In this document: positions 30,600 to 64,000 of the stretch, in pieces
Position numbering within the stretch: position 1 is the stretch's first letter
How the letters are laid out: each line of letters begins with the position of its first letter
Origin: Ktedonobacterales bacterium
GTDB taxonomy: Bacteria; Chloroflexota; Ktedonobacteria; Ktedonobacterales; DATBGS01
Direction: 5' to 3'
Assembly: GCA_036557285.1 (NCBI GenBank)
Contig: DATBHW010000016.1
Location: 6,995-70,994, forward strand
Length of the DNA stretch: 64,000 nucleotides
Notes under the pieces: model-generated
Database searches by the model: none
Seen by the model: the letters and a program-made list of their open reading frames with translations, nothing else
Told to the model about the DNA's origin: nothing
Made by a program: the position numbers and the translations under genes

Positions 30600-31526
30600 A
30601 TGTCAGCGCCGCTGATTACCCTGACAACCGACTTCGGGCAGGCCGATGGCTACGTTGGCACGATGAAGGGCGTTATCCTCAGCCGCGCCACGCACGCACA
30701 GATCATAGACCTGAGCCATGAAATCCCCCCGCAAGGCATCGCGGCGGGCGCATTCGTCCTCTATCGCGCCTACCGCTACTTCCCGCCCCGGACTATCCAT
30801 GTAGCCGTCATTGATCCTGGCGTGGGTACTGCCCGGCGCGCCTTGCTGCTGATGACAGGCCAGGGTCGCTTTATCGGGCCAGATAACGGCCTCTTCAGCT
30901 ATGTACTGCGCGAGGCTATCGCCCTGGCCGCTGGATGGACCGGCACGCCCGCCAGTGTCCCCGCCGTCTGGCATCCAGACTTTGACCTCGAAGCCGTCCT
31001 ATCCACCACGGCGCGAGAGCGCCTGCCCACTGCCTACGCGCTGACCAACCCGGCCTACTGGCTGGAAGGGCCTGGCGCGCCCGCGCGAGCCGCAGGCGTC
31101 ACCTTCCAGGGCCGCGACCTCTTTGCGCCCGTCGCGGCGCATCTGGCGAATGGCGTCGCGCCCGCCGAACTCGGCCAGCCCGTCCCGCTGGAGAGCCTGA
31201 CGCTGCTGCCGACATCGAGACCCATCCGCTCGCCTGGCGTCATCGAGGGCCGCGTGATTGCCGTTGATCACTTCGGCAATCTGATCAGCAACATCGCGGC
31301 GGGCCTGCTGCCCACACTGGGACCGTTGGACGCGCTTCAGGTATCGCTTGGCGCATATCGGCTGCCGGGTGTTCATACCACCTACAGTGCGGCGCAGCCC
31401 GGCCAGCCGCTGGCCCTTATCAACAGCGCGGGCCTGCTGGAAATTGCCATCCGCGAAGGCCACGCCGCCCATCAGCTAGGCGGGCGCGTCAGCGACACCA
31501 TATTCTGTAGGAGCGCGAGCGGTTGA
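30600..31526 (+). CDS. SAM hydroxide adenosyltransferase / SAM-dependent halogenase family (DUF62) protein, variant
   Basis: 'LTTDFGQADGYVGTMKGVI', 'IDPGVGTARR', 'GPDNGL' and 'TFQGRDLFAPVAAHLANG' are present. The Gln at nt 31107-31109 sits where I recall a His (FHGRD) in hydroxide-type members. Confidence 0.8.
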   Translation: MSAPLITLTTDFGQADGYVGTMKGVILSRATHAQIIDLSHEIPPQGIAAGAFVLYRAYRYFPPRTIHVAVIDPGVGTARRALLLMTGQGRFIGPDNGLFSYVLREAIALAAGWTGTPASVPAVWHPDFDLEAVLSTTARERLPTAYALTNPAYWLEGPGAPARAAGVTFQGRDLFAPVAAHLANGVAPAELGQPVPLESLTLLPTSRPIRSPGVIEGRVIAVDHFGNLISNIAAGLLPTLGPLDALQVSLGAYRLPGVHTTYSAAQPGQPLALINSAGLLEIAIREGHAAHQLGGRVSDTIFCRSASG

Positions 31527-54190: not shown

Positions 54191-55346
54191 CTCGCCCCTT
54201 GCCTGTCCCAATCGTCTCCTCGCTGGCGCGCGCCTCTTTGGCAATCAAATCAGCGGCAATGGGCGCTTCGCGGGAGATATTGAAGAGCGTGCCACGAATG
54301 TTGTAATTCATCCCTACAAAATAGAGATGAGGGACGCCAGCAGCCCGCAGGCCATCCATCAGCGGGCGACCAGCATCATCCAGGGTAATAACATCAGCGA
54401 GATAGCGCAGCGCGGGCCGATAGCCTGTTGCCAGGATAATGCTGTCAAAGTCAGCCATTTGCCCGTTTGCAAAACAGACGCCCGCAGGCGTGAAATGCTC
54501 GATTGCGCCAGCAACGCGAATAGCTCCTTGCCGCGTATGCTGCAAGAGGTCCAATCCAATGATCGGAATCCCTGCGCCATCCAGAACACCCTGCGTTGGG
54601 CGTGGCACGCCTGCCCGCGCCTGGCGCTGTGCTGATCGGCGCAGCAGCACCGGAGCAATCAATCCCGTCACAGAGCGCGGCAGCACAGCGATGAGATGCG
54701 CCCACCACTGAATGGGTACCCCCAGCAGGTTCAACGGCACGACATTTGCTCCCGCGCGGATAGAGATCGTTGGTGTCAGGCCATGTTCCGCCAGATCGAT
54801 GGCAATCTCCGCTCCGGTGTTCCCGGCCCCGATCACCAGAACCCGCTCTCCGGCGTATGGCGCCGCGTTCTGATAGGCGGCGGCATGAAGCACGCGCCCC
54901 TTGAAAAGCTCCATATCACGATAGGTTGGGGTAAGGGGCTGGCTGAACATACCAGCCGCTGAAACAAGCGCCTGGGCGTGATACTCGCCCTTCGTCGTCG
55001 TCACGCGCCAGCCGCCCTCCTCTGGCACGACATGTGTCGCCGTGCAGTTCGTCTCAATCGCCAGCCCAAAGTGATCGGCATAAGCGGCCAGATACTCGGC
55101 AACCTGGGAGCGCGAGGGATAGCGGGGAAAAGCGCGCGGCATGGGGAAGCCGGGCAGACCAGAGAGACGTTTGACCGTATGGAGATGGAGCCGCTCATAC
55201 AGCCGCAGCCAGGTATAGCCCACAGCATCGCCTGCTTCCAAGATCAGAGGACTAATACTACGCTGCTTGAGGCACATGCCAGTAGCCAGCCCCGCCGGAC
55301 CAGCGCCAACAATAATGACGGGCGCTGACTCAACCGCACGACCCAT
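54180..55346 (-). CDS. FAD/NAD(P)-dependent flavin-containing monooxygenase-like oxidoreductase
   Basis: 'IIVGAGPAGLA' FAD fold and a second 'VIGAGNTGAEIA' NAD(P) fold. I chose the ATG at 55346 (AGGAGGGAAAGC upstream); the track ORF extends to 55457. Confidence 0.8.
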   Translation of the reverse strand: MGRAVESAPVIIVGAGPAGLATGMCLKQRSISPLILEAGDAVGYTWLRLYERLHLHTVKRLSGLPGFPMPRAFPRYPSRSQVAEYLAAYADHFGLAIETNCTATHVVPEEGGWRVTTTKGEYHAQALVSAAGMFSQPLTPTYRDMELFKGRVLHAAAYQNAAPYAGERVLVIGAGNTGAEIAIDLAEHGLTPTISIRAGANVVPLNLLGVPIQWWAHLIAVLPRSVTGLIAPVLLRRSAQRQARAGVPRPTQGVLDGAGIPIIGLDLLQHTRQGAIRVAGAIEHFTPAGVCFANGQMADFDSIILATGYRPALRYLADVITLDDAGRPLMDGLRAAGVPHLYFVGMNYNIRGTLFNISREAPIAADLIAKEARASEETIGTGKGRAAS

Positions 55347-55493
55347 GCTTTCCCTCCTGAGCAACGAACAATCACGGCTTACGCCGACAGCTTGCCAGCT
55401 TCTTGCTGAAGAAGAGCCAATCCCCTCGCTCCTATGATACACTGTAGCCTGCCACACGAGAAGGTGTATAAGTCGCTAAATGGAGAAAACTAG

Positions 55494-56213
55494 ATGGATT
55501 TCAGCAGCAAAGTCGCCGTTCTCACAGGCGCTGGCGGTGGCTGGGGGCGCGCGGTAGCCCTCGCTTTTCTGAACGCCGGAGCCTCTGTCGTCGTCGTGGA
55601 GCGCCCGGAGGTGTGCGCCGAAAGAGCAGGCTGGAAAGCAGAACTGGGGAAGCCAGGCGAACAGTTGACCCTGCTTCCAGGCAACGTCTTTGATGAAGCC
55701 AGTGTAGAGGGTATCGTCAAGGATGTACTGGCGCGACATGGTCATTTAGATGTGCTGGTGAATATGGTTGGCGGGTTTGCCGCCGGTCAACCCGTGCATG
55801 AAATGAACCCGGAAACCTGGGAGCGTATGCTCCAGTTGAATCTGCGTTCCGCCTTTCTTTGCTCAAAGCACGCGGCCCACCCCATGATTCAGCAGCGATG
55901 GGGCCGCATCATCACCATTTCTTCGCGCGCGGGCGTGCAGCCTGGCCCCAAAGCGGCGGCTTACGCTGCATCGAAAGCAGCGGTCATCTCGCTGACCGAA
56001 TCGCAGGCCGAAGAACTTAAAGACGATTTCATTACGGTAAACACGGTCTTGCCCAGCATTGTTGATACCCCCGCGAATCGTCAGGCTATGCCAAAAGCCG
56101 ACTTTTCCCGCTGGCCCAAAGGTGAGGAGATCGCTCCGGTCATCCTCTTCCTTGCCTCGGAGGAAGCGAAGTTGATCAATGGCGCGGCCATTCCGGTGTA
56201 TGGCCGGGCCTAG
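55494..56213 (+). CDS. short-chain dehydrogenase/reductase (SDR)
   Basis: 'VLTGAGGGWGRA' cofactor motif, 'NMVGG', and 'YAASKAA' YxxxK. Confidence 0.9.
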   Translation: MDFSSKVAVLTGAGGGWGRAVALAFLNAGASVVVVERPEVCAERAGWKAELGKPGEQLTLLPGNVFDEASVEGIVKDVLARHGHLDVLVNMVGGFAAGQPVHEMNPETWERMLQLNLRSAFLCSKHAAHPMIQQRWGRIITISSRAGVQPGPKAAAYAASKAAVISLTESQAEELKDDFITVNTVLPSIVDTPANRQAMPKADFSRWPKGEEIAPVILFLASEEAKLINGAAIPVYGRA

Positions 56214-57243
56214 CGTCATGCCCTCCTGGGGGTGATCGGGTTGCTTCTGATTCCGACTGATCGGCGGCAGACGCTTCCGGCGCTGCGCCGTTTGAGGACG
56301 GCTCTTCTGCTGCTGGCCTTTCTGCTGATGGCGTCTCAGGAAAGCGGCGATGGATGATGGCATTGTGAAGCATGGTGGGTACATCTTCCGGGGTTTCACG
56401 ATGACCGGCCAGCCAGGAATTGATCTCCGCGCCCATCAGCAGCAGGAAAGCGAAGTAATAAAAGAAGGAAAGGAGAAGGAGCAGAAAACCAGCCGTTTCG
56501 CCATATTTTCCCGGACGAATGAGCGCGCTGGCAATCCAGGGAAAGAGCAGTTCATAGACAACCAGAAACAACGCCGCCAGGGCGGCCCCCGGCCAGCTAT
56601 TACGCCAGCCGACATGGCGGCTAGGTACCAGCAGGTAGATTGCCAGCAGCCAGATAAACGCCGCGAGATACGCCCCCGCAAACACGGCAATCTGGGCTAT
56701 TAATCCAGGTGGCTGGGTATGCCAGACCTGCTGGACAACTGTGGTGGTGAGCAATGAAGGAATGGCTGCTCCCAGAAACATGATGGGGGCCAGAAGCACA
56801 AACAGCGCCGTCAGGCCAAGCGCCACCAGTTGCTGTCCAAGCACCGAGCGTGGTCGTTCACGATAGATGATTGCGAAACAATCATCCATCCTGACAACAA
56901 GGCGCGAGCCGAACAAGAGCGCCGAAATCAAGCCCACCACCAACAGCACGCCAGAGGATTGCTTCAGATCATTCGTGACCGCTACGATGACGTGGCTCGA
57001 TATTTGCGCGGGAAAGACTTGCTCAAGTGCAGCAATCAGTTTCTCCTCTGTGCCAGAGCGCAGCCCTTGCAGCGCCAGGCCCACCCCGCCGATGAGCAGT
57101 AGAAAAATCGGCACCGTTGCCAGCAAAAGATAGTACGCCAGCATCCCGGCCAGATCAAAAATCCAGTCGTTGAATGCTTTATAACAAAAGCGTATTGGCA
57201 CAGTGCGTCGCAGCGCCGACCAGTTGATGCGAAGCAAGCGCAT
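56176..57243 (-). CDS. YihY/BrkB-family membrane protein
   Basis: 'FNDWIFDLAGMLAYYLLLATVPIFLLL' N-terminal signature and 6 helices, with a hydrophilic C-terminal tail. I chose the ATG at 57243 (GAGGTGGGG upstream). 38-nt convergent overlap with the SDR gene. Confidence 0.8.
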   Translation of the reverse strand: MRLLRINWSALRRTVPIRFCYKAFNDWIFDLAGMLAYYLLLATVPIFLLLIGGVGLALQGLRSGTEEKLIAALEQVFPAQISSHVIVAVTNDLKQSSGVLLVVGLISALLFGSRLVVRMDDCFAIIYRERPRSVLGQQLVALGLTALFVLLAPIMFLGAAIPSLLTTTVVQQVWHTQPPGLIAQIAVFAGAYLAAFIWLLAIYLLVPSRHVGWRNSWPGAALAALFLVVYELLFPWIASALIRPGKYGETAGFLLLLLSFFYYFAFLLLMGAEINSWLAGHRETPEDVPTMLHNAIIHRRFPETPSAERPAAEEPSSNGAAPEASAADQSESEATRSPPGGHDARPGHTPEWPRH

Positions 57244-57374
57244 CTTCCCCACCTCTGCTCATATTTAACACTCGCCAGGTTGATCTATGAAAATACAAAC
57301 GCACGATATATTCCAAATTGCAGATAGGACAGGCATCTTCTTCTATCGAGTGCCATCAGAGTCCATGCCAGATA

Positions 57375-58628
57375 TTATGAACTGATCCACTCCACCACAT
57401 GCGCTTCCGTGAGGTCAGGGACTTCTAGCTTGCGCATCAGGCGATAGATCACCGCTTCGGGGACAGGATTGGGGCGCGCGGCATTCCTGCGCAGCATCTC
57501 ATCAAAGGGGGCTTCTACATAGACGATGCGAACCCTCGCGTGATATGAGGTGAAAAAGTCGATCAACTGTGAGCGCAGCAAACGGGTAACATTGGTCGCA
57601 TTCCACACAAAGAATTGCTGTTTGCGCATCAATGCGCGCGCCTGCTCTTTCGCCACTTGAATCACCCGCCCTTGCTGTGCTTCAGAGGCAATCTTCAAGT
57701 CCTGGCGCAGACGATCAAGGGAAACTATCGGCCAATCCGAGCAATGTTCTGCTATCCAGCGGTCTTTTCCCACGCCGGGCAGCCCGGCCATCAACACTAC
57801 CTCAAAGCGCGAATCATCATAGGCCGTATACTCCGGGTCTCTGCCCTCGCCGCGAAAAAACAGGAAACGGCTCTGCGCGTTCGCAAACGACCTGGGGCCG
57901 TGATAACACCGCTGCTCCTGGCAGAACTCGCGGAAGAGTTCGATGCGTCCCAGCAATGCCTGCTGGTCGGCGCAGATGCGCCCCCTGACATCCACCTCTG
58001 CCAGCAGCGCCAGCCTATCCAGGCGAACCGTCTGGCTGGCTTCAATCACCGCACGTTCAGGAGCCGACTTTTCCAGAAACCATAGAGGCAAGCCGTGATA
58101 GCGAACCAGTTTAGCAATCCGCTCCCGCTGAGCAAAGGGCGCGGGCGCGCGAGCCGCAGGCGAGACTGCGGGAACCCAGTTCCCGCAAGCGCCCGCGCCT
58201 TCGGCGGCGGGCGCGCGAGCCGCAGGCGTGTCCAGGCCGATGCCTCGCCATAAAATCTCCCTTGCCAGCGATTCACCTTTGCGGGCATGCTTCTTCGAGC
58301 TAATCCTACCATCTGGCTCGACGACAGTACACGCTGGTTTCGCCACGTCATGCAGCAGGGCGGCGGCAAACAGCGCCTCGCGTTCCTCTTGAGGCAAAGC
58401 GCGCCATTCGTCTAACACGATCAAAGCTTCCGCAACCATGCGCGTGTGAATCAGCACATCCCCTTCGGCATGAAACAGCGGGTCTTGCGGCGTGTCTCGC
58501 ATCGCCTGTATCCAGTCACACTGCGCCTGGATGCGCTCCCACGACAATCGCCAATCTGGCGGCATGGGGCAAAAGGGAAAAGACCAGCTTTGTATATTCT
58601 CTCGCTCGTCGTTCACAGCCTGCCTCAT
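57375..58628 (-). CDS. HD-domain phosphoesterase fused to P-loop polynucleotide kinase (HD-Pnk-like end-healing enzyme)
   Basis: N-terminal 'FHAEGDVLIHT...AALLHDVAKP...KKHARKG' (H..HD..H pattern) and C-terminal 'VVLMAGLPGVGKD' Walker A kinase module. Same strand as the ligase gene and 14 nt after it. Confidence 0.8.
   Translation of the reverse strand: MRQAVNDERENIQSWSFPFCPMPPDWRLSWERIQAQCDWIQAMRDTPQDPLFHAEGDVLIHTRMVAEALIVLDEWRALPQEEREALFAAALLHDVAKPACTVVEPDGRISSKKHARKGESLAREILWRGIGLDTPAARAPAAEGAGACGNWVPAVSPAARAPAPFAQRERIAKLVRYHGLPLWFLEKSAPERAVIEASQTVRLDRLALLAEVDVRGRICADQQALLGRIELFREFCQEQRCYHGPRSFANAQSRFLFFRGEGRDPEYTAYDDSRFEVVLMAGLPGVGKDRWIAEHCSDWPIVSLDRLRQDLKIASEAQQGRVIQVAKEQARALMRKQQFFVWNATNVTRLLRSQLIDFFTSYHARVRIVYVEAPFDEMLRRNAARPNPVPEAVIYRLMRKLEVPDLTEAHVVEWISS
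58141..58228. repeat. 22-bp perfect direct repeat pair flanking a 44-bp GC-rich segment with an internal hairpin, in-frame inside the HD-Pnk gene
   Basis: GCGGGCGCGCGAGCCGCAGGCG occurs at 58141-58162 and 58207-58228, offset 66 nt (22 codons). Internal 9-bp stem tgcgggaac/gttcccgca at 58167-58187. It encodes PAARAPA...PAARAPA. Confidence 0.7.
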
Positions 58629-58642
58629 TATCTCGTGTGCGC

Positions 58643-59428
58643 TTAGAAGAGCCGGACGCCAGGTTTCAGGCCGTTGGGAATGATCGGGCGATCAAGCCAA
58701 TGGCTGTCGGAGTCGAGGACCGTTTGCAGAAAGCTGGAGCGCACATATTTATAGCGCCCCTGCACCTGCCCACCTTCCTCGACCTTGATATATAAGCCTT
58801 CCATCAAACCGCTTTGATCGGTCTTAGGTAAGACCAGTCTGGCGTCCAGATTTCTTACAGTGCAGATCGATTCCAGGCGGCGCAGAGAATCCGGGGCAAT
58901 AAAGTGCGATGGGCCGACCAGCGCCGTCAGTTCCCGCAACGACTTCACCTGCCCCTCGTAAAGCACCTTGACCGACGCGACAAAAGGCGCTTGCTTCAGC
59001 AGTTTCCTGCGCCTCTGCGTGCTGAGAAAGACGGCATTTACTTTGTCGAACAGATCAAACTCCAGAAAATAATGGGGCAAGTCAGTGTAGAAGATACTGT
59101 GTTTGGCATACAACCACTCGCCATACATCACATAGCGATCAGCCAGCGCGTCCCATAAGTCGGTGGTGTAGCGCCCGGCCCAGGCTTTGAGAAGGTGAAA
59201 ATGTTTTTCTCGTTCGCCGCCAACCAGGTAATGCCCCCGGCTTTGCAGGAGCAATCGGCCATCAGGGTTAAAGCTCACCGCGCTGTTAGCCCCATCCATC
59301 TTTTCTTCCACCACCAGATAGCGCCCTGCAAGCTCTTGAAACGAAGCAACGCTCACATCTTCATCGCCCGGCTGCAAGCCGGAGCCTTCGATATGCCGTG
59401 TGCGTGGATATTTATAAATCTCGCTCAT
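58643..59428 (-). CDS. ATP-dependent polynucleotide (RNA) ligase, nucleotidyltransferase-domain-only type
   Basis: 'YPRTRHI' N-terminus, 'VVEEKMDGAN' (motif I lysine), 'VMYGEWL' (III), 'EGLYIKV' (IV) and 'RYKYVR' (V). ATGA overlap with the upstream methyltransferase gene. Confidence 0.8.
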   Translation of the reverse strand: MSEIYKYPRTRHIEGSGLQPGDEDVSVASFQELAGRYLVVEEKMDGANSAVSFNPDGRLLLQSRGHYLVGGEREKHFHLLKAWAGRYTTDLWDALADRYVMYGEWLYAKHSIFYTDLPHYFLEFDLFDKVNAVFLSTQRRRKLLKQAPFVASVKVLYEGQVKSLRELTALVGPSHFIAPDSLRRLESICTVRNLDARLVLPKTDQSGLMEGLYIKVEEGGQVQGRYKYVRSSFLQTVLDSDSHWLDRPIIPNGLKPGVRLF

Positions 59429-60126
59429 CCCTGCCCCATCTTTGCCACGATCAGGATATGGTTCAGAACATAACTCACGTTCACATGCAGCGCCCCTTGC
59501 TCTGTCAACAGCGCCCTCAACGTGCGCTCGTCAAACAGATGAATATGCTCAGGGTTATGGTCTTCTTTGGATGGTATTGAGCAGATAAGACACCTGCTTG
59601 CCACCCGGCAGACTTCCGCCAGCGCCTTTGTAGTATCGGGGATATGCTCCAGCACCTCCAGCATCGTAACCACATCAAAGCTGCGATCAGCAAACGCCAG
59701 CGAAGTGACATCCATCTTCAACGCCGTAAGCTGCGTCATACCGCCAGCATGTACCGCTTGCATATCCGCCACACGATAATCAAGCAGATCAAGCGCCGTG
59801 ACGGGCAGATCGGGAAATTCGGTGAGCAGCGGCCAGAGAAACGCGCCCCTGCCGCTGCCAATGTCAAGCAGGTTACACGGCTGAAGACCCTTTAGAACAC
59901 CCAGCGCCTTCCTGACACGCGGCAGTTCCATCGTTCGCTTAAACCGATGCAAGCGGAGTCCCTGGCTAATGCCAAATTGAATAACCTGCTCCAGCGCCTC
60001 ATCAGAAAGGTCATTGAGCGGTTGAGCAAACAATGGCCTATGCTGCTCCGCTAGAGGGGTATGCAGCAGCTTTCCGCGCACAAAGGCAGCCGCAAGCCGT
60101 GAATAATAAGCTGGGGCGCTGCTCAT
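59425..60126 (-). CDS. class I SAM-dependent methyltransferase (small, Hen1-catalytic-domain-like features)
   Basis: 'LLDIGSGRGAF' motif I, 'VTALDLLD', and 'VVTMLEVLEHIPD' followed by 'NPEHIHLF'. Confidence 0.8.
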   Translation of the reverse strand: MSSAPAYYSRLAAAFVRGKLLHTPLAEQHRPLFAQPLNDLSDEALEQVIQFGISQGLRLHRFKRTMELPRVRKALGVLKGLQPCNLLDIGSGRGAFLWPLLTEFPDLPVTALDLLDYRVADMQAVHAGGMTQLTALKMDVTSLAFADRSFDVVTMLEVLEHIPDTTKALAEVCRVASRCLICSIPSKEDHNPEHIHLFDERTLRALLTEQGALHVNVSYVLNHILIVAKMGQG

Positions 60127-60192
60127 GGGTGCCAGGCCTCATCCTTTGGGAAATCGGCTGAAGTATAGCACATGGGGCCGCAAAGCAGATGA

Positions 60193-60840
60193 TTACACGA
60201 TCCAGTCGCGGCGCTCAGCGAAGGCATACAGCGCCCGCTCCTGGGAGGGTGCTTCTACCGCGCCCGTACAGACGGCGCGAACCGTTCGCAGGGCTTCTGC
60301 CGGGCTGGCGCCGCTGCGAATGAGATAAGCGGTCAGGACGGTTCCGGTGCGCCCCTGGCCCATCAGGCAATGGACCACTACTGCGCGGCCAAGCGCGTGC
60401 TGCTCATCAATAAACTCAAGGGCGCGCACGAGTTGTGCTGTCGTTGGAGGGGTCAGGTCTGGCACAGGCAGATGTAATACGGCCAGATCATGCCGCGCCA
60501 GAGCTTCAGCGTTCAGTTGCGTTTCAGTAAGCGAGAGGACCGCGCCGATACCTTGCTGATTCAGCCAGAGCAGATCATCATCCAGCCTATCGGCTTCTTC
60601 AGAGTGGGCATCTTTTTCGCGCGCGAAAGGATTACCTCCACCTCTGCCGCCTGGACGTGGGCAGCCTGCCAGCAAGCCCTCAATCAACCAGTAAAAACCG
60701 CGCATAACCTTCTCGCTATCCTCCTTCGCCTTTCTTGCGTCCTTCTTGCTTGAAGTGTACCATCTGGCGCTGATTGGCAAATCAGTCTTCCAGCCAGGTT
60801 TGTGCTTTTCTCCGCCTGCCCAAAGGTCTAGGTAGCTCAC
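60193..60840 (-). CDS. dual-specificity (cysteine) phosphatase-fold protein
   Basis: 'VVVHCLMGQGRTGTVLTAYL' HCX5R(T) P-loop, with 'LPVPDLTPP' as a candidate general-acid loop. The start is uncertain: GTG 60840 without an SD, or ATG 60705 (MRGFYWLIEGLLAGCP). Confidence 0.75.
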   Translation of the reverse strand: MSYLDLWAGGEKHKPGWKTDLPISARWYTSSKKDARKAKEDSEKVMRGFYWLIEGLLAGCPRPGGRGGGNPFAREKDAHSEEADRLDDDLLWLNQQGIGAVLSLTETQLNAEALARHDLAVLHLPVPDLTPPTTAQLVRALEFIDEQHALGRAVVVHCLMGQGRTGTVLTAYLIRSGASPAEALRTVRAVCTGAVEAPSQERALYAFAERRDWIV

Positions 60841-61005
60841 TCAACAGAAGGGGGATGTGGCCGCGCTCACCGCATTGTATGCTCAGAGTGTCCTACCGAG
60901 TCACGCCAACGGGCTGAGTTCACAAGCTATCACCACCAGGCTATTTACAAGACACAAGGTTTTGGCCCGTTCAGAGCGGCAGGAGTACCAGAGGAGAAGA
61001 TTACA

Positions 61006-61941
61006 ATGGCAGAGAAACAAGGCCAGCCATCAGTGCTGAGTCAGTTTTCAGATCAATTAGCAACCGTCGTCGAGCGCGCCGCGCGCTCCATCGTTACCGT
61101 CGCAGCCAGACCGCGCCAGACCGCAACCGGCATTCTCTGGCAAGCCGGGCAAGAAACCATCATTCTCACTGCCGATCATGTCATCGAGCGCGAAGAAGAT
61201 ATTACCCTTACCCTGCCGGACAAGCGCGAAGCGAAGGCTCAGCTTATTGGCCGCGATCCCAGCACTGACCTGGCCGCGCTCCGGCTGAGCGGCGTGGAAC
61301 TGGGCGCGGAGAACGTCGCCGCAGAAACCAGCGAAGGGCTGCGCGTCGGCCATCTCGTCCTGGCGATTGGGCGGCCATCATCAGACGGGCCGCGTGTTTC
61401 GTTTGGCGCGGTCAGCTCTATTGATGGCCCCCGGCGCTCCTACCAGGGCAGCGAGATCGAAGGCGTTATCTATGCCGATGTAACGCTCTATCCTGGCTTC
61501 TCAGGCGGGCCACTCGTCGATCTTTCAGGGCGCGTGGTCGGTCTGAATAGCTCGCAGCTTACCCGCCAGAACAGCAGCGCGCTTCCCGTCGTGACACTGC
61601 GCCGCGTGGCAAACACGCTGCTGACACATGGGCGTGTGCGGCGCGGATACCTTGGGGTCGGCACCCAGCAGGTGCCTTTCCCTGCCGCGCTCGCGCAAAA
61701 GGGCGGTATCACCCAGCAGACGGGCCTGTTGATCGTCGCCGTCGAGCCTGGCAGCCCGGCAGAGAAAGCAGGCTTGCTGATCGGCGATCTACTGGTTTCG
61801 CTGGGCGGCCAGCCGACAACGGATGGCGCGACCCTGCGCGCCCAGCTTGGGGCTGATCAACTGGGCCAGGCGCTCCAGGCGAAAATCTTCCGTGGTGGCG
61901 AGCCGCGCGACATCAATATCACTGTTACCGAACGGTCCTAG
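61006..61941 (+). CDS. S1C trypsin-like serine protease with C-terminal PDZ domain (HtrA/DegP-like)
   Basis: Triad contexts 'LTADHVI', 'TDLAAL' and 'GFSGGPL'. PDZ-like 'GSPAEKAGLLIGDLLVSLGG'. Confidence 0.85.
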   Translation: MAEKQGQPSVLSQFSDQLATVVERAARSIVTVAARPRQTATGILWQAGQETIILTADHVIEREEDITLTLPDKREAKAQLIGRDPSTDLAALRLSGVELGAENVAAETSEGLRVGHLVLAIGRPSSDGPRVSFGAVSSIDGPRRSYQGSEIEGVIYADVTLYPGFSGGPLVDLSGRVVGLNSSQLTRQNSSALPVVTLRRVANTLLTHGRVRRGYLGVGTQQVPFPAALAQKGGITQQTGLLIVAVEPGSPAEKAGLLIGDLLVSLGGQPTTDGATLRAQLGADQLGQALQAKIFRGGEPRDINITVTERS

Positions 61942-61985
61942 CTTTCACTATCCTCCAGGCGGATCGCCAGGAAGGAATCGCTTCT

Positions 61986-63014
61986 ATGTCAACAGAACAA
62001 AACACTACCAACCCTCTCTCTGAGGAGCTTGCCAACCTGACCGAGTTGGTGCGCGCCAGCGTCGTGCAGGTGCATGAAGGGAGCCGAGGCATCGGGTCAG
62101 GCATCATCTGGCGTCTCGAAGCGCCCGATGCTGACGGCGAAGCCGACGCGACTATCATCACCAACGCCCACGTTGTACGCGCCGCTGGCGAAAAGACGCT
62201 CACATTGCAGCTTGCCGATAACCGCAAGATTCAGGGGACGCTTATCGCCGTCGATCCGGCGCACGATCTGGCTGCGCTGCGCGTGCATACCAGCAGCCTT
62301 CATCCGGCGCAGATCGGCGACTCCACAAAGCTGCGAGTGGGCGAACTGATGCTGGCGGTAGGCCATCCGCTTGGGCGCATTGGGGCGCTGACGTTTGGCG
62401 TCTTGGCGGCTCGCGCGCCCGCCGATCCCGACATACGGCTTGAGCCAATCGAGCCTGCCAGGGACGCGGAAAAGCACCCGGCGTCAGATGGCGACACACC
62501 CCCAGGACGGGAGAGGCGGCTGCAAGGGGTAGATTTTATTCAGGCAGATATTCGCCTGTATCCTGGTAACTCCGGCGGGCCGCTGGCCGACGCGCAGGGC
62601 CGCGTCGTCGGCGTCAACGCGATGGTTGGCGGGGGTCTGGCCTTTGCCATACCCAGTCGCGTTGTGGAACAATTCCTGTTAGAAGTCGGCCAGGCAACAT
62701 CGCAGGTATATCTTGGCGTGCAGGTGCTTACCGCGCCCCTACCCGCAGCCCTACGCCAGCGGTTGGGCATCCAGCAAGAGACAGCGGCGCTGGTGTTGGA
62801 GGTAGAAGCTGGCAGCCCCGCAGAAGCAGCGGGCATAATAGTAGGTGATGTCGTGTTAGCGGTTCAAGGACAGGCCGTCCACGATGTTCAGTACATCTCG
62901 CGGCTCTTGCGCCGCGCCAGGCCAAGCAGCGGCCAGGGATTGACGCTCTCGCTGCTGCGCGGCGGCGAGCGCCTGGAACTCTCGCTGCTCCCAGAGGTAC
63001 GCGCCGCTGCATAA
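61986..63014 (+). CDS. S1C trypsin-like serine protease with PDZ domain, paralogue with an inserted loop
   Basis: 'ITNAHVV', 'HDLAAL' and 'GNSGGPL'. PDZ-like 'GSPAEAAGIIVGDVVLAVQG'. About 45 extra residues lie between the Asp and Ser contexts (ARAPADPDIRLEPIEPARDAEKHPASDGDTPPGRERR). Confidence 0.85.
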   Translation: MSTEQNTTNPLSEELANLTELVRASVVQVHEGSRGIGSGIIWRLEAPDADGEADATIITNAHVVRAAGEKTLTLQLADNRKIQGTLIAVDPAHDLAALRVHTSSLHPAQIGDSTKLRVGELMLAVGHPLGRIGALTFGVLAARAPADPDIRLEPIEPARDAEKHPASDGDTPPGRERRLQGVDFIQADIRLYPGNSGGPLADAQGRVVGVNAMVGGGLAFAIPSRVVEQFLLEVGQATSQVYLGVQVLTAPLPAALRQRLGIQQETAALVLEVEAGSPAEAAGIIVGDVVLAVQGQAVHDVQYISRLLRRARPSSGQGLTLSLLRGGERLELSLLPEVRAAA

Positions 63015-63133
63015 CATATTTTTGATAAGAGCCTGACGTGCCAGGAGACCCTGATGTGGGAGGCATTCTCTTCCCACTCAGGGCTGCTGGCGCGAACAAC
63101 TATTTTTCATCTGCACAGAGAGGCGACCCAGCA

Positions 63134-63847
63134 GTGCGTGTCTACGTTGTCTCAACTTATCCAACCGTTCGCGCCGGACTCAGCGCGCTGGTGCGCGGGC
63201 AAGAGGGCTGGACGGTCATCGGTGAGATGGCTCCAGATGCCATCCTGCGCGCCAGCAGCGCGGGCCTCATCAGTGATCGTGAAAATCCGCCGGATGTCGT
63301 GCTGGCTGATCTGGACGGTTCAGAGGACAGCGATGCTATTGATGCGTGGTTGGGGGCGCTGCGCCCACAGCGCGGCATCGTGGTCCTGGGCGCGTCTCAA
63401 TCTCCCAACTCTAACACCCGCAGAGATCAAGAACTATTACGACTCCTGGGAAGTATGGCGCGCGTCGTTGCCGACCAGAGCTTAGGTTTTGGCGCGCTCC
63501 AACGTGACGCTACCGGCGAAGAGATTGTGGCCGCTATCTCTGCCGTTGCCGGTGGCCTGATTACCCTTGACCGCCGACTGGCGAGCGACCTGCTAGCGCC
63601 CCCCGAACGCGCGCAGCCACCGATGCCTGAGCGCCTGGCAGATGCCGAGGAGCCACTTACCGCGCGAGAATTAGAGGTGCTGCAACTGCTGGCAGAGGGA
63701 TTGCCCAATAAACTGATTGCCGCGCAGTTGCACATCAGCGAACACACCGCAAAGTTTCACGTCTCCGCGATTATGCTGAAGCTCGGCGCGGCGAGCCGCA
63801 CAGAAGCCGTGACTCTAGCTGCCCGGCGCGGCCTGCTGATTCTTTAA
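63134..63847 (+). CDS. LuxR-family regulator with atypical receiver-like N-domain (orphan)
   Basis: C-terminal 'LTARELEVLQLLAEGLPNKLIAAQLHISEHTAKFHVSAIMLKLG' HTH and N-terminal 'VRVYVVSTYPTVRAGL...DVVLADLDG'. The start is GTG 63134 (AGAGAGG upstream) or GTG 63038. Confidence 0.7.
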   Translation: MRVYVVSTYPTVRAGLSALVRGQEGWTVIGEMAPDAILRASSAGLISDRENPPDVVLADLDGSEDSDAIDAWLGALRPQRGIVVLGASQSPNSNTRRDQELLRLLGSMARVVADQSLGFGALQRDATGEEIVAAISAVAGGLITLDRRLASDLLAPPERAQPPMPERLADAEEPLTARELEVLQLLAEGLPNKLIAAQLHISEHTAKFHVSAIMLKLGAASRTEAVTLAARRGLLIL

Positions 63848-64000
63848 GAGAAACTGGGAAATTATCGGATTGGATTTCTCTTTTTTCTGATAGGCTCTAG
63901 GTTCCACCAACTATTGGGGGGACGCCACTTGTAGCGCCGCCATCTTGGCGGCTAACGCTGCGCCAGGGCGAACGTTCGCCCGCCAGGCCACCGGACCAGC

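What the first reader, a model, noticed from the sequence alone, without database searches (positions are those of the whole stretch)
57375..60840. Four-gene putative RNA end-healing / sealing / marking cassette: Cys-phosphatase, SAM methyltransferase, ATP ligase, HD-Pnk
**Seen in the sequence.** Four same-strand genes are tightly linked.
- The methyltransferase stop overlaps the ligase start (ATGA at 59425-59428).
- The ligase to HD-Pnk gap is 14 nt, and the phosphatase to methyltransferase gap is 66 nt.
- The ligase ORF carries covalent nucleotidyltransferase motifs in order: KMDGAN, YGEW, EGLYIKV, YKYVR.
- The 417-aa ORF has an N-terminal HD-type H..HD..H pattern and a C-terminal GLPGVGKD P-loop kinase.
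- The methyltransferase has GSGRG, then a LEVLEH...EHIHLF acid/His pattern.
- The phosphatase has HCLMGQGRTG (HCX5R).

**Established knowledge.**
- HD-Pnk (2',3'-phosphoesterase plus 5'-OH kinase, characterised from Runella slithyformis) is typically paired with a LIG gene as an end-healing/sealing module.
- The separate Pnkp/Hen1 system adds a 3'-terminal 2'-O-methyltransferase that makes the repaired junction resistant to re-cleavage.
- DSP-fold cysteine phosphatases include RNA 5'-phosphatases (baculovirus BVP, PIR1/DUSP11).

**Inference.** This locus looks like a hybrid. It is an HD-Pnk/LIG core, translationally coupled to a small standalone methyltransferase with no Hen1 N-terminal domain, and preceded by a DSP-fold phosphatase. 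I do not know of a characterised example of this architecture. It could be a heal/seal/immunise system against ribotoxin or phage-induced RNA breaks.
Basis: partly seen in the sequence, partly recalled or inferred. Interest (0 to 1): 0.75.

Follow-up and report, generated by a model that had tools for sequence, protein, structure and literature searches.

The report
RNA break-repair operon with mini-Hen1 methylase
This is a three-gene bacterial operon (methyltransferase, RNA ligase, end-healing enzyme) of a widespread but biochemically unsolved RNA-repair family, while the neighbouring phosphatase gene is probably only a local neighbour and not part of the machine.

Summary
All four ORFs, their junctions and their motifs are real. 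They lie on the minus strand of a Ktedonobacterales (Chloroflexota) chromosome.

**Core module.** The conserved unit is MT–LIG–HD-Pnk.
- Among 80 genome loci holding a LIG homologue, HD-Pnk follows LIG in 65 of 73 evaluable loci.
- The same methyltransferase family sits directly upstream of LIG in 43 of 72 loci, across at least 10 phyla, often with the same ATGA overlap.
- This methyltransferase family is also found fused to an Rnl2-like RNA ligase.
- A profile-profile comparison aligns its four invariant residues (E157, E160, H161, H194) with the metal-binding residues of Hen1.
- It therefore looks like a "mini-Hen1" that lacks Hen1's N-terminal domain.

**The phosphatase.** The DSP gene does not travel with the module.
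- It is adjacent only in the window's closest relatives. There it is usually separated from MT by 400–900 bp containing an opposite-strand ORF.
- Homologues at 62–68% identity sit in unrelated contexts.
- It resembles DUSP23 and archaeal PTPs, not the RNA 5'-phosphatases.
- A conserved extended −10 box lies between DSP and MT.

**Verdict.** This is a heal / (probably) 2'-O-methylate / seal operon, a variant of the Runella LIG/HD-Pnk cluster. The four-gene reading is only partly supported.

The parts
59425..60126 (-). MT: a 233-aa class I SAM methyltransferase ('mini-Hen1'). It has an ~80-aa helical N-terminal extension, motif I LDIGSGRG (59845-59868), LEVLEH (59644-59661) and PSKEDHNPEHIHLF (59533-59574).
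   Evidence: Pfam Methyltransf_11 at 2.5e-14. E157, E160, H161, D189, N191 and H194 are invariant in 29 orthologues. hhalign against Hen1 methyltransferase domains gives probability 97.3% and E 2.6e-11, with all four Hen1 metal-ligand positions matched. The AF2 model has pLDDT 89.5. The gene sits upstream of LIG in 43 of 72 loci.
59425..59428 (-). ATGA overlap between the MT stop codon and the LIG start codon, indicating translational coupling.
   Evidence: Read directly from the sequence. The same 4-nt overlap occurs in 14 of 33 adjacent MT-LIG pairs across loci and in L090.
58643..59428 (-). LIG: a 261-aa ATP-dependent RNA-ligase-type covalent nucleotidyltransferase with no appended substrate-binding domain. 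Motif I is K43 (KMDGAN, 59285-59302), motif III is YGEW, motif IV is EGLYIKV and motif V is YKYVR.
   Evidence: Pfam RNA_ligase at 7.5e-35. The motif residues are invariant in 14 homologues. The top Foldseek matches of its AF2 model (pLDDT 62.8) are RNA ligases: REL1, NgrRnl, Rnl3, T4 Rnl1 and Rnl2.
57375..58628 (-). HD-Pnk: a 417-aa protein. The N-terminal HD phosphoesterase has H53, H61, H93-D94 and H114 (about 58275-58472). The C-terminal P-loop polynucleotide kinase covers aa 277-404 (about 57417-57800) and carries GLPGVGKD at 57762-57785.
   Evidence: Pfam HD at 1.2e-5 and AAA_33 at 1.3e-22. The catalytic residues are invariant in 8 homologues. The gene lies downstream of LIG in 65 of 73 loci.
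60127..60192 (-). The 66-nt DSP-MT spacer. It holds an extended -10-like box, TGCTATACT (60162-60170), 35 nt upstream of the MT ATG, and a GGATGAGG Shine-Dalgarno-like site. This is the predicted promoter of the MT-LIG-HD-Pnk operon.
   Evidence: The same TGCTATACT box lies 34 nt upstream of the MT start in relative L087 and also occurs upstream of MT in L001. It occurs once in the window. This is a prediction only; the generic promoter scan did not call it.
60193..60705 (-). DSP: a 170-aa DUSP23-like cysteine phosphatase with the HCX5R loop (60343-60372) and a candidate general-acid Asp in PVPD (60457-60468). It is a probable neighbour and at most a lineage-specific accessory.
   Evidence: Pfam Tc-R-P, PTP-SAK and DSPc. 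PDB matches: 25xa at 7.6e-29, DUSP23 at 2.7e-18, BVP at only 4e-4. Synteny is limited to close relatives.
58149..58229 (-). An 81-nt in-frame insertion (27 aa, TPAARAPAAEGAGACGNWVPAVSPAAR) after the Pfam HD match (aa 58-125), well upstream of the kinase domain (aa 277-404). It is unique to this genome.
   Evidence: It is absent from all 7 aligned homologues. It carries two perfect 22-nt direct repeats 66 nt apart plus a palindrome.

Best explanation
**What it is.** The functional unit is a three-gene operon, MT-LIG-HD-Pnk (60126 down to 57375, minus strand). It repairs RNA breaks that carry 2',3'-cyclic-phosphate (or 3'-phosphate) and 5'-OH ends.

**Proposed steps.**
1. The HD domain of HD-Pnk opens and removes the 2',3'-phosphate, leaving a 2'-OH/3'-OH end.
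2. Its P-loop kinase domain phosphorylates the 5'-OH.
3. The small SAM methyltransferase, a relative of the Hen1 catalytic domain that keeps the Hen1 metal-binding tetrad, most likely 2'-O-methylates the 3'-terminal ribose.
4. LIG is adenylylated on K43 by ATP, transfers AMP to the 5'-phosphate and seals the break. This leaves a junction that a transesterifying ribonuclease cannot cut again.

**Complex formation (inferred).** LIG is a bare nucleotidyltransferase domain, and it is translationally coupled to MT. MT probably works in a complex with LIG, through its conserved ~80-aa N-terminal extension, and may be needed for sealing, as Hen1 is for Pnkp.

**The DSP gene.** The upstream DUSP23-like phosphatase is most likely a separately transcribed neighbour. 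At most it is a lineage-specific accessory.

**Shown versus inferred.**
- Shown here: domain identities, conserved catalytic residues, conserved gene order and gene fusions.
- Inferred: RNA as the substrate, 2'-O-methylation, complex formation, and the order of the steps.
For: **Domain identities.**
- Pfam assigns all domains.
- The catalytic residues are invariant across homologues.
- The LIG model matches RNA ligases best.

**Conserved gene order.** The survey covered 80 genome loci from Chloroflexota, Bacteroidota, Bacillota, Melainabacteria, Planctomycetota, Myxococcota, Spirochaetota, Pseudomonadota and others.
- HD-Pnk lies downstream of LIG in 65 of 73 evaluable loci.
- MT lies within 300 bp upstream of LIG in 43 of 72.
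- The ATGA overlap occurs in 14 of 33 adjacent MT-LIG pairs.
- No conserved gene lies upstream of MT.

**Link to RNA.**
- The MT family is fused to an Rnl2-like ligase (RNA_ligase plus T4_Rnl2_C) in P0398, P0373 and P0376.
- Related loci add a second, Rnl2-like ligase.
- Some add a protein combining an MJ1316 cyclic-end-recognition domain, EEP, a 2H-phosphoesterase and a PAP-type nucleotidyltransferase.

**Hen1 likeness of MT.**
- hhalign of the MT family against Hen1 methyltransferase domains gives probability 97.3% and E 2.6e-11.
- E157, E160, H161 and H194 align with Hen1's E..EH...H positions.
- The better-scoring PDB methyltransferases (RebM, AtmM, 3mgg) lack this E-x-x-E-H set in the printed alignments.

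**Published precedent.**
- Runella HD-Pnk is a 2',3'-phosphoesterase plus 5'-OH kinase. Its LIG self-adenylylates but did not ligate any of the 3'-OH/5'-PO4 DNA or RNA substrates tested (PMC6097658).
- Hen1 is required to activate the Pnkp ligase (PMC4411300).

**DSP as a neighbour only.**
Against: - No enzyme of this exact operon has been assayed.
- MT scores far below the Hen1 family cut-off (TIGR04074: 21.5 bits against 340).
- Foldseek of the confident MT model returns generic small-molecule O-methyltransferases. Hen1 is not among the top 50.
- The identity of the Hen1 metal ligands is taken from memory of the literature. It was checked here only through the 52-residue spacing.
- MT is absent from 40% of LIG loci, so it is not obligatory for LIG/HD-Pnk function.
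- In some close relatives MT is separated from LIG.
- Runella HD-Pnk also acts on DNA ends, according to the title of the paper cited.
- The window has no terminator between DSP and MT, so read-through co-transcription of all four genes is not excluded.
- An unrelated DSP sits directly after HD-Pnk in one Chloroflexaceae lineage (L035).
Confidence: 0.7

Rival explanations
1. This is the first reader's model: an integrated four-gene cassette. The DSP-fold phosphatase acts on RNA ends (a 5'-tri- or monophosphate, a 3'/2'-phosphate, or a junction 2'-phosphate) and takes the place that Tpt1 holds in the Runella cluster.
For: - The DSP is on the same strand, 66 nt from MT, with no terminator-like site between them.
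- The DSP-MT-LIG-HD-Pnk order mirrors the Runella order Tpt1 / MTase-HIT / LIG / HD-Pnk.
- The DSP hits Pfam PTP-SAK, a DSP family named after predicted multi-domain RNA-repair proteins.
- A different DSP, only 31% identical and with PTP-SAK as its best hit, lies 22 nt (ORF coordinates) after HD-Pnk in Chloroflexaceae L035. A decayed copy is present in L033.
- DSP and MT stay adjacent in several relatives (L001, L002, L081, L087).
Against: - The DSP is adjacent in only 2 of the 80 surveyed LIG loci as a close homologue, and in one further lineage as a distant homologue.
- In relatives the DSP-MT gap is about 390-920 bp and carries an opposite-strand ORF.
- DSP homologues at 62-68% identity sit among unrelated genes.
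- In L091 the DSP is decayed while MT is intact.
- The closest solved relatives are DUSP23 and archaeal PTPs, not BVP-type RNA phosphatases.
- A conserved -10-like box lies in the spacer.
Confidence: 0.2
2. The module is real, but MT is not a 3'-terminal 2'-O-methyltransferase. It could methylate a base or a 5'-phosphate, or a non-RNA substrate. Alternatively it could serve mainly as a structural activator of LIG.
For: - The best sequence and structure matches are sugar and small-molecule O-methyltransferases: RebM at 1.3e-10, AtmM, MftM at 6.9e-17.
- MT fails the Hen1 family threshold.
- It lacks the Hen1 N-terminal domain.
- It has a 12-residue deletion relative to Hen1 next to the fourth metal ligand.
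Against: - All four Hen1 metal-ligand positions are matched by invariant residues.
- The family is fused to an RNA ligase.
- The family is found almost only next to LIG in the loci surveyed.
- Sugar-hydroxyl methylation is itself what the best-matching enzymes do.
Confidence: 0.2
3. The module heals and seals DNA nicks (3'-phosphate/5'-OH), or acts on both nucleic acids, rather than being an RNA repair system.
For: - Runella HD-Pnk is described as a DNA/RNA end-healing enzyme in the title cited.
- Some databases name LIG homologues 'DNA ligase III'.
- Runella LIG did not seal any of the RNA or DNA substrates tested.
Against: - LIG belongs to PF09414 RNA_ligase, and its model matches RNA ligases ahead of DNA ligases.
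- Its partners in related loci are RNA-specific: an Rnl2-like ligase, an MJ1316 cyclic-end domain and a 2H phosphoesterase.
- A Hen1-like ribose methyltransferase has no role on DNA.
Confidence: 0.08

Closest known systems
Runella slithyformis LIG / HD-Pnk repair cluster (Munir & Shuman 2017; Munir et al. 2018, PMC6097658)
   Same: - A PF09414-type ligase gene lies immediately upstream of an HD(N)-P-loop kinase(C) gene.
- An AdoMet methyltransferase gene lies just upstream of the ligase.
- The architecture is found in many phyla.
- The window's HD-Pnk is 31% identical (E 8e-68) to the homologue in a Spirosomataceae locus, the family that contains Runella.
   Different: - There is no Tpt1 and no HIT domain.
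- MT is a stand-alone 233-aa protein overlapping LIG by ATGA, not a fusion protein separated from LIG by 152 nt.
- A DSP gene occupies the position upstream of MT.
- I could not compare directly with the Runella sequences, and I did not test whether the Runella MTase domain belongs to this MT family.
Bacterial Pnkp/Hen1 and Pnkp1-Rnl-Hen1 RNA repair systems (PMC4411300)
   Same: - The same four chemistries are clustered: 5'-kinase, 2',3'-phosphoesterase, ATP-dependent ligase and SAM methyltransferase.
- MT aligns with the Hen1 catalytic domain, including the four metal-ligand positions.
- In both systems the methyltransferase gene is adjacent to the ligase-bearing gene.
   Different: - The parts are not orthologous. 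The phosphoesterase is an HD domain, not a calcineurin-type one.
- The ligase is a bare 261-aa PF09414 domain, not an Rnl4-type ligase.
- MT lacks the ~260-aa Hen1 N-terminal ligase-activating domain and scores 21.5 bits against a cut-off of 340 for TIGR04074.
- HD-Pnk scores 29 bits against a cut-off of 750 for TIGR04075.
Phage T4 Pnkp + Rnl1/Rnl2 heal-and-seal pathway
   Same: The logic is the same: kinase and phosphatase healing followed by ATP-dependent sealing. The LIG model resembles Rnl2-family ligases (REL1, T4 Rnl2), NgrRnl and T4 Rnl1.
   Different: - The T4 phosphatase is of the HAD type.
- T4 has no methyltransferase.
- The T4 ligases carry extra substrate-binding domains that LIG lacks.
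'Swiss Army Knife' DSP-PTPase domain family (Pfam PF22784 PTP-SAK; from memory, defined by the Burroughs & Aravind 2016 survey of RNA repair systems, which could not be read here)
   Same: The window's DSP and the Chloroflexaceae DSP next to HD-Pnk both match this family, at 8e-16 and 5.8e-19.
   Different: - The window's DSP is a stand-alone protein whose best Pfam hit is Tc-R-P.
- Its close homologues occur in non-repair contexts.

Membership tests
HD-Pnk (Runella type) | N-terminal HD phosphoesterase domain with the H...HD...H metal motif | tested here: met
   Pfam HD scores 26 bits against a cut-off of 22. H53, H61, H93, D94 and H114 are invariant in 8 homologues.
HD-Pnk (Runella type) | C-terminal P-loop 5'-OH polynucleotide kinase domain | tested here: met
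   AAA_33 at 1.3e-22. The Walker A residues G282-K288-D289, together with D305, R308 and R385, are invariant. There is weak similarity to the bacterial Pnkp kinase model.
HD-Pnk (Runella type) | Gene lies immediately downstream of a putative ATP-dependent ligase | tested here: met
   The gap is 14 nt in the window. The arrangement holds in 65 of 73 loci.
HD-Pnk (Runella type) | 2',3'-phosphoesterase and 5'-OH kinase activities | not testable with these tools
   This needs enzyme assays.
ATP-dependent RNA ligase (covalent nucleotidyltransferase, PF09414) | Motifs I (KxDGxN), III, IV and V in order, and a family HMM score above threshold | tested here: met
   121 bits against a cut-off of 27. 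K43, D45, G46, N48, E104, E210, K215 and K227 are invariant.
ATP-dependent RNA ligase (covalent nucleotidyltransferase, PF09414) | Nucleotidyltransferase fold closest to RNA ligases | tested here: inconclusive
   The top 39 Foldseek hits (E<=1e-3) are mostly RNA ligases: REL1 at 2.5e-6, then NgrRnl, Rnl3, Rnl1, Rnl2 and Trl1. However, the model has a pLDDT of only 62.8 and TM scores of about 0.4-0.5. A sequence search of the PDB found nothing.
ATP-dependent RNA ligase (covalent nucleotidyltransferase, PF09414) | Appended N- or C-terminal substrate-binding domain, as in Rnl1-Rnl5 | tested here: not met
   The protein is 261 aa and the Pfam domain spans residues 37-229. Only short conserved tails remain.
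Bacterial Hen1 (TIGR04074) | Full-length family model score at or above the cut-off | tested here: not met
   21.5 bits against 340.
Bacterial Hen1 (TIGR04074) | N-terminal Pnkp-binding, ligase-activating domain | tested here: not met
   MT is 233 aa. Its ~80-aa helical N-terminal extension has no Pfam match.
Bacterial Hen1 (TIGR04074) | Metal-binding tetrad E-x-x-E-H ... H in the methyltransferase domain | tested here: met
   hhalign gives probability 97.3%. E157, E160, H161 and H194 align with E108, E111, H112 and H160 of the Hen1 alignment, and all are invariant in both families. The identity of the ligands comes from memory of the literature.
Bacterial Hen1 (TIGR04074) | 3'-terminal ribose 2'-O-methylation | not testable with these tools
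   This needs an enzyme assay.
DSP / PTP cysteine phosphatases | HCX5R(S/T) P-loop with an upstream general-acid Asp, and a family HMM score above threshold | tested here: met
   The P-loop is H112-C113...R119-T120 and the Asp is D83 in PVPD. DSPc scores 53.2 bits against 33.5, and Tc-R-P scores 72.5 bits.
RNA 5'-phosphatase branch of DSPs (BVP, PIR1/DUSP11) | Closest similarity is to that branch | tested here: not met
   BVP (1yn9) scores 4e-4, against 2.7e-18 for DUSP23, about 1e-16 for archaeal PTPs and 7.6e-29 for 25xa.
   A close DSP homologue is adjacent in only 2 of 80 loci. More distant homologues lie elsewhere. One independent case exists in Chloroflexaceae.

The most novel reading that the evidence does not exclude
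MT-LIG-HD-Pnk may be a second, independently assembled 'repair with immunity' machine built from parts that are not orthologous to Pnkp/Hen1. In this reading the mini-Hen1 methyltransferase both installs a 2'-O-methyl mark and acts as the obligatory partner of a bare-nucleotidyltransferase ligase, activating it and binding the substrate. This would explain why the Runella LIG self-adenylylates but did not ligate any of the substrates tested. In a few lineages a DSP-fold phosphatase would have been recruited as an extra end-processing step, analogous in position to Tpt1.
Probability: 0.3. Interest if true: 0.7.

Novelty: new variant of a known kind. Interest (0 to 1): 0.45.

Why it matters
The LIG/HD-Pnk family is spread over many bacterial phyla. 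More than 7,700 LIG homologues were scored. Its natural substrate and its sealing activity are still unknown: the only ligase studied self-adenylylates but joined none of the substrates tested.

Three results here give a concrete and cheap hypothesis for the missing factor, namely to test LIG together with MT and SAM.
- Most members carry a dedicated, translationally coupled methyltransferase.
- That methyltransferase keeps the Hen1 metal site.
- The same methyltransferase family is fused to an Rnl2-like ligase elsewhere.

The results also suggest that junction-immunising RNA repair evolved more than once. For genome annotation, this methyltransferase family is currently labelled 'UbiE' or 'class I SAM-dependent methyltransferase' and could be renamed.

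Tried and rejected
- **Foldseek of the MT model.** The model is confident, but the search returned only generic class I O-methyltransferases and could not separate Hen1-like from other methyltransferases. The profile-profile comparison was needed instead.
- **PDB sequence and profile searches with LIG.** These found nothing.
- **LIG structure model.** The AF2 model from a shallow alignment was poor, with pLDDT 62.8.
- **Defence and RNA scans.** PADLOC gave no defence-system hit apart from a weak generic methyltransferase match. There was no Rfam match in 55000-64000 and no tRNA in the window.
- **Generic promoter and terminator scan.** It called nothing on the minus strand between the genes. 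The extended -10 box was found by comparing relatives. Across loci, TGnTAnnnT occurs upstream of MT in 12 of 41 cases against a 9.6% background. This supports MT being the first gene in the operon, but the evidence is weak.
- **P0426.** This 832-aa protein looked like an MT-LIG fusion. It is a frameshift-ridden read-through, so I discarded it.
- **HD-Pnk insertion as a structured element.** It folds no better than shuffled sequence, with z = -0.94.
- **Literature that could not be read.** The survey most likely to have catalogued this architecture (Burroughs & Aravind 2016, PMC5062991) was not held. Nor were the HD-Pnk paper (PMC5237116) or the Hen1 active-site paper (PMC3039143). Statements about them rest on citations in other papers or on memory.

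Full report
**1. Observation**

Four co-oriented ORFs lie on the minus strand.
- Phosphatase: 60193-60840 as listed, from a GTG start.
- Methyltransferase (MT): 59425-60126.
- Ligase (LIG): 58643-59428.
- HD-kinase (HD-Pnk): 57375-58628.

The sequence read confirms three junctions.
- ATGA stop/start overlap of MT and LIG.
- A 14-nt LIG to HD-Pnk gap.
- A 66-nt phosphatase to MT gap.

All quoted motifs are present at the stated order.

Pfam confirms every domain assignment.
- RNA_ligase, 7.5e-35.
- AAA_33, 1.3e-22, plus HD, 1.2e-5.
- Methyltransf_11, 2.5e-14.
- DSP-type phosphatase families: Tc-R-P 4.7e-20, PTP-SAK 8e-16, DSPc 3.5e-14.

One correction is needed. The phosphatase almost certainly starts at ATG 60705, giving 170 aa.
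- That exact protein is the form held from NCBI.
- Its homologues are 162-177 aa long.
- Only the JGI gene call uses the GTG at 60840.

The closest genome loci are from Ktedonobacterales MAGs. Base composition is unremarkable across the region.

**2. The conserved unit**

I fetched 80 genome loci around LIG homologues (53-80% identity). They come from Ktedonobacteria, Chloroflexaceae, Anaerolineae, Thermoactinomycetaceae, Bacteroidota, Melainabacteria, Planctomycetota, Myxococcota, Spirochaetota, Pseudomonadota and others.

tblastn with the four window proteins gave these counts.

| Feature | Count |
|---|---|
| HD-Pnk downstream of LIG | 65 of 73 evaluable loci |
| Orthologue of this MT (41-77% identity) within 300 bp upstream of LIG | 43 of 72 evaluable loci |
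| Close DSP homologue in the locus | 2 loci (L001, L002) |

- The 4-nt overlap between MT and LIG recurs in 14 of 33 adjacent pairs.
- It is seen again in a metagenomic relative, L090.
- No other gene is conserved upstream of MT.

The conserved unit is therefore LIG-HD-Pnk, in most cases with MT in front of it.

**3. Evidence that the substrate is RNA**

- The LIG structure model is of modest quality (pLDDT 62.8). Its best matches are RNA ligases: T. brucei REL1, Naegleria Rnl, archaeal Rnl3, T4 Rnl1 and Rnl2, and Trl1. Most DNA ligases rank below them.
- In Chloroflexaceae and some Bacteroidota a second ligase is inserted between LIG and HD-Pnk. It is Rnl2-like (RNA_ligase plus T4_Rnl2_C).
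- In L057 and L064 there is also a ~985-aa ORF. L057's was scanned against Pfam and has four domains: MJ1316 (RNA cyclic-end recognition), EEP, a 2H phosphoesterase and a PAP-type nucleotidyltransferase.
- A profile search with the MT family against 1.8 billion representative proteins found 221 clusters at E<=1e-30. Nearly all are stand-alone proteins of about 210-240 aa.
- One clade is different: the complete MT, including its N-terminal extension, is fused to the C-terminus of an Rnl2-like RNA ligase (P0398, with P0373 and P0376 as truncated copies).
- A further apparent MT-LIG fusion, P0426, is a frameshift artefact.

**4. What the methyltransferase is**

In 29 orthologues the following are invariant.
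- The SAM motif: D88, G90, G92, R93, G94.
- E157, L159, E160, H161.
- P185, D189, N191, H194.
- H223.

The N-terminal ~80 residues are also conserved and are predicted to be helical. The model has pLDDT 89.5.

A profile search of the PDB places the C. thermocellum and Anabaena Hen1 methyltransferase domains among the hits.
- 3jwi scores E 1.9e-8.
- It is the longest alignment.
- It is the only printed alignment sharing E-x-x-E-H.

I then made a direct test.
- I fetched five annotated Hen1 genes from plasmids.
- I aligned their catalytic domains.
- I ran hhalign against the MT family.
- The result was probability 97.3% and E 2.6e-11 over 140 columns.
- MT residues E157, E160, H161 and H194 fall on the invariant Hen1 positions E, E, H (EVIEH) and H (HxDH).
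- The spacing of these positions (52 residues) matches the C. thermocellum Hen1 Mn2+ ligands E366, E369, H370 and H418 as I recall them from the literature.
- MT has a 12-residue deletion before the last ligand.

Against membership of the Hen1 family:
- TIGR04074 scores 21.5 bits against a cut-off of 340.
- There is no Hen1 N-terminal domain.
- Foldseek returns generic O-methyltransferases.

I therefore call it Hen1-like in its catalytic site, but not a member of the Hen1 family.

**5. The phosphatase**

Its nearest solved relatives are as follows.

| PDB relative | E-value |
|---|---|
| 25xa, an uncharacterised DSP | 7.6e-29 |
| Human DUSP23 | 2.7e-18 |
| Archaeal PTPs | about 1e-16 |
| Baculovirus RNA 5'-phosphatase (BVP) | 4e-4 |

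Genomic contexts of its homologues fall into two groups.
- At 76-81% identity (L081, L087) the whole region is syntenic: a GerE regulator, two trypsin-PDZ proteases, DSP, MT and further genes. However, the DSP-MT gap is about 450 bp and holds an opposite-strand ORF of 69-86 aa that the window has lost.
- At 62-68% identity (L083, L084, L086) the DSP sits among unrelated genes.

Viewed from the MT side:
- L090 has MT-LIG-HD-Pnk without a DSP.
- L089 has MT alone beside the GerE/protease block.
- L091 has a decayed DSP plus an intact MT and no adjacent LIG.
- L002 has 4.4 kb between MT and LIG.
- L087 has no LIG within 470 bp after MT.

DSP-MT adjacency is therefore local synteny within one clade, in a region that rearranges.

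An extended -10-like box is also present.
- TGCTATACT lies 35 nt upstream of the MT start in the window (60162-60170).
- It lies 34 nt upstream of the MT start in L087.
- It is also found upstream of MT in L001.

The one argument for a functional link is an independent case. A DSP only 31% identical, with PTP-SAK as its best Pfam hit, lies directly after HD-Pnk in Chloroflexaceae L035 and is decayed in L033.

**6. Mechanism**

Step by step, with the basis of each:
- HD phosphoesterase and P-loop kinase healing. These are established for the Runella enzyme (cited in PMC6097658) and inferred here from conserved residues.
- 2'-O-methylation of the healed 3' end by MT. This is inferred from section 4.
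- Adenylylation of LIG at K43 and sealing. This is inferred from the motifs. Self-adenylylation has been shown for Runella LIG, but no strand joining was seen with the substrates tested.

LIG is a bare nucleotidyltransferase domain, and the Pnkp ligase needs Hen1 for activity (PMC4411300). I infer that MT and/or HD-Pnk supply substrate binding or activation within a complex. The conserved translational coupling fits that idea.

**7. Comparison and novelty**

The locus belongs to the known LIG/HD-Pnk kind. The published Runella cluster already has an AdoMet methyltransferase (fused to HIT) and Tpt1 upstream.

What differs here is a stand-alone methyltransferase that overlaps LIG, the absence of Tpt1 and HIT, and a neighbouring DSP.

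The system is analogous, but not orthologous, to Pnkp/Hen1 and Pnkp1-Rnl-Hen1.

I rate it a new variant of a known kind, of moderate interest. The window's own instance adds little. The family-level results (MT conservation, the Hen1-type metal site, the Rnl2-MT fusion) are a useful lead for an unsolved enzyme system.

**8. Limits**

- Only the best 80 of 152 confirmed LIG loci were surveyed.
- ORFs in the loci were called mechanically.
- The promoter is a prediction.
- No Runella sequence was available for direct comparison.
- The key comparative-genomics survey could not be read.

Noticed in passing
window 58149-58229 (minus strand, inside HD-Pnk): An 81-nt in-frame insertion encodes 27 Ala/Pro/Gly-rich residues after the Pfam HD match (aa 58-125), well upstream of the kinase domain (aa 277-404). 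It is absent from all 7 aligned homologues. It carries two perfect 22-nt direct repeats (58141-58162 and 58207-58228) and a palindrome, GCGGGAACTGGGTTCCCGC. A 22-mer with 2 mismatches also occurs at 31077-31098. The insertion folds no better than shuffled sequence (z = -0.94). Its origin (slippage or duplication versus a small repeat element) is unresolved.
   Followed up: partly
L081 6598-6807, L087 6597-6857, and L002/L001 between DSP and MT: Close relatives carry a small opposite-strand ORF (69-86 aa, no Pfam match) in a DSP-MT spacer of about 400-900 bp. The window has lost it, and this loss is what brings DSP to within 66 nt of MT.
   Followed up: partly
P0398 (561 aa), P0373, P0376: This is a clade of natural fusion proteins. 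An Rnl2-like RNA ligase (RNA_ligase plus T4_Rnl2_C) is followed by the complete MT of this family, including its N-terminal extension.
   Followed up: partly
L033 8815-9876, L035 2738-3799; L057, L064, L065: A second ligase of about 350 aa, Rnl2-like, is inserted between LIG and HD-Pnk in Chloroflexaceae and some Bacteroidota. These loci therefore encode two different RNA ligases side by side.
   Followed up: partly
L057 10002-12959 (similar-sized 990-aa ORF at the same position in L064, not itself scanned): A 985-aa protein combines four domains: MJ1316 (RNA cyclic-end recognition), EEP nuclease/phosphatase, a 2H (LigT-like) phosphoesterase and a poly(A)-polymerase-type nucleotidyltransferase. 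It is encoded between the Rnl2-like ligase and HD-Pnk.
   Followed up: no
window 61006-63847 (plus strand) and 56176-57252 (minus strand): Two tandem trypsin-PDZ (HtrA-like) protease genes and a GerE/LuxR-type regulator diverge from the DSP gene. A BrkB/YihY-family membrane protein follows HD-Pnk after 122 nt. Both flanks are conserved only in the closest relatives (L081, L002).
   Followed up: partly
L089 3952-4797: In one relative, an orphan MT with no adjacent LIG lies next to a divergently oriented microbial poly(ADP-ribose) glycohydrolase (PARG_cat_microb) gene. This may be relevant given the Tpt1 / ADP-ribose link of the Runella cluster.
   Followed up: no
L073 10067-11068 (also L069, L074): A WYL-WCX regulator gene lies directly downstream of LIG-HD-Pnk in Raineyaceae (Bacteroidota) loci.
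   Followed up: no
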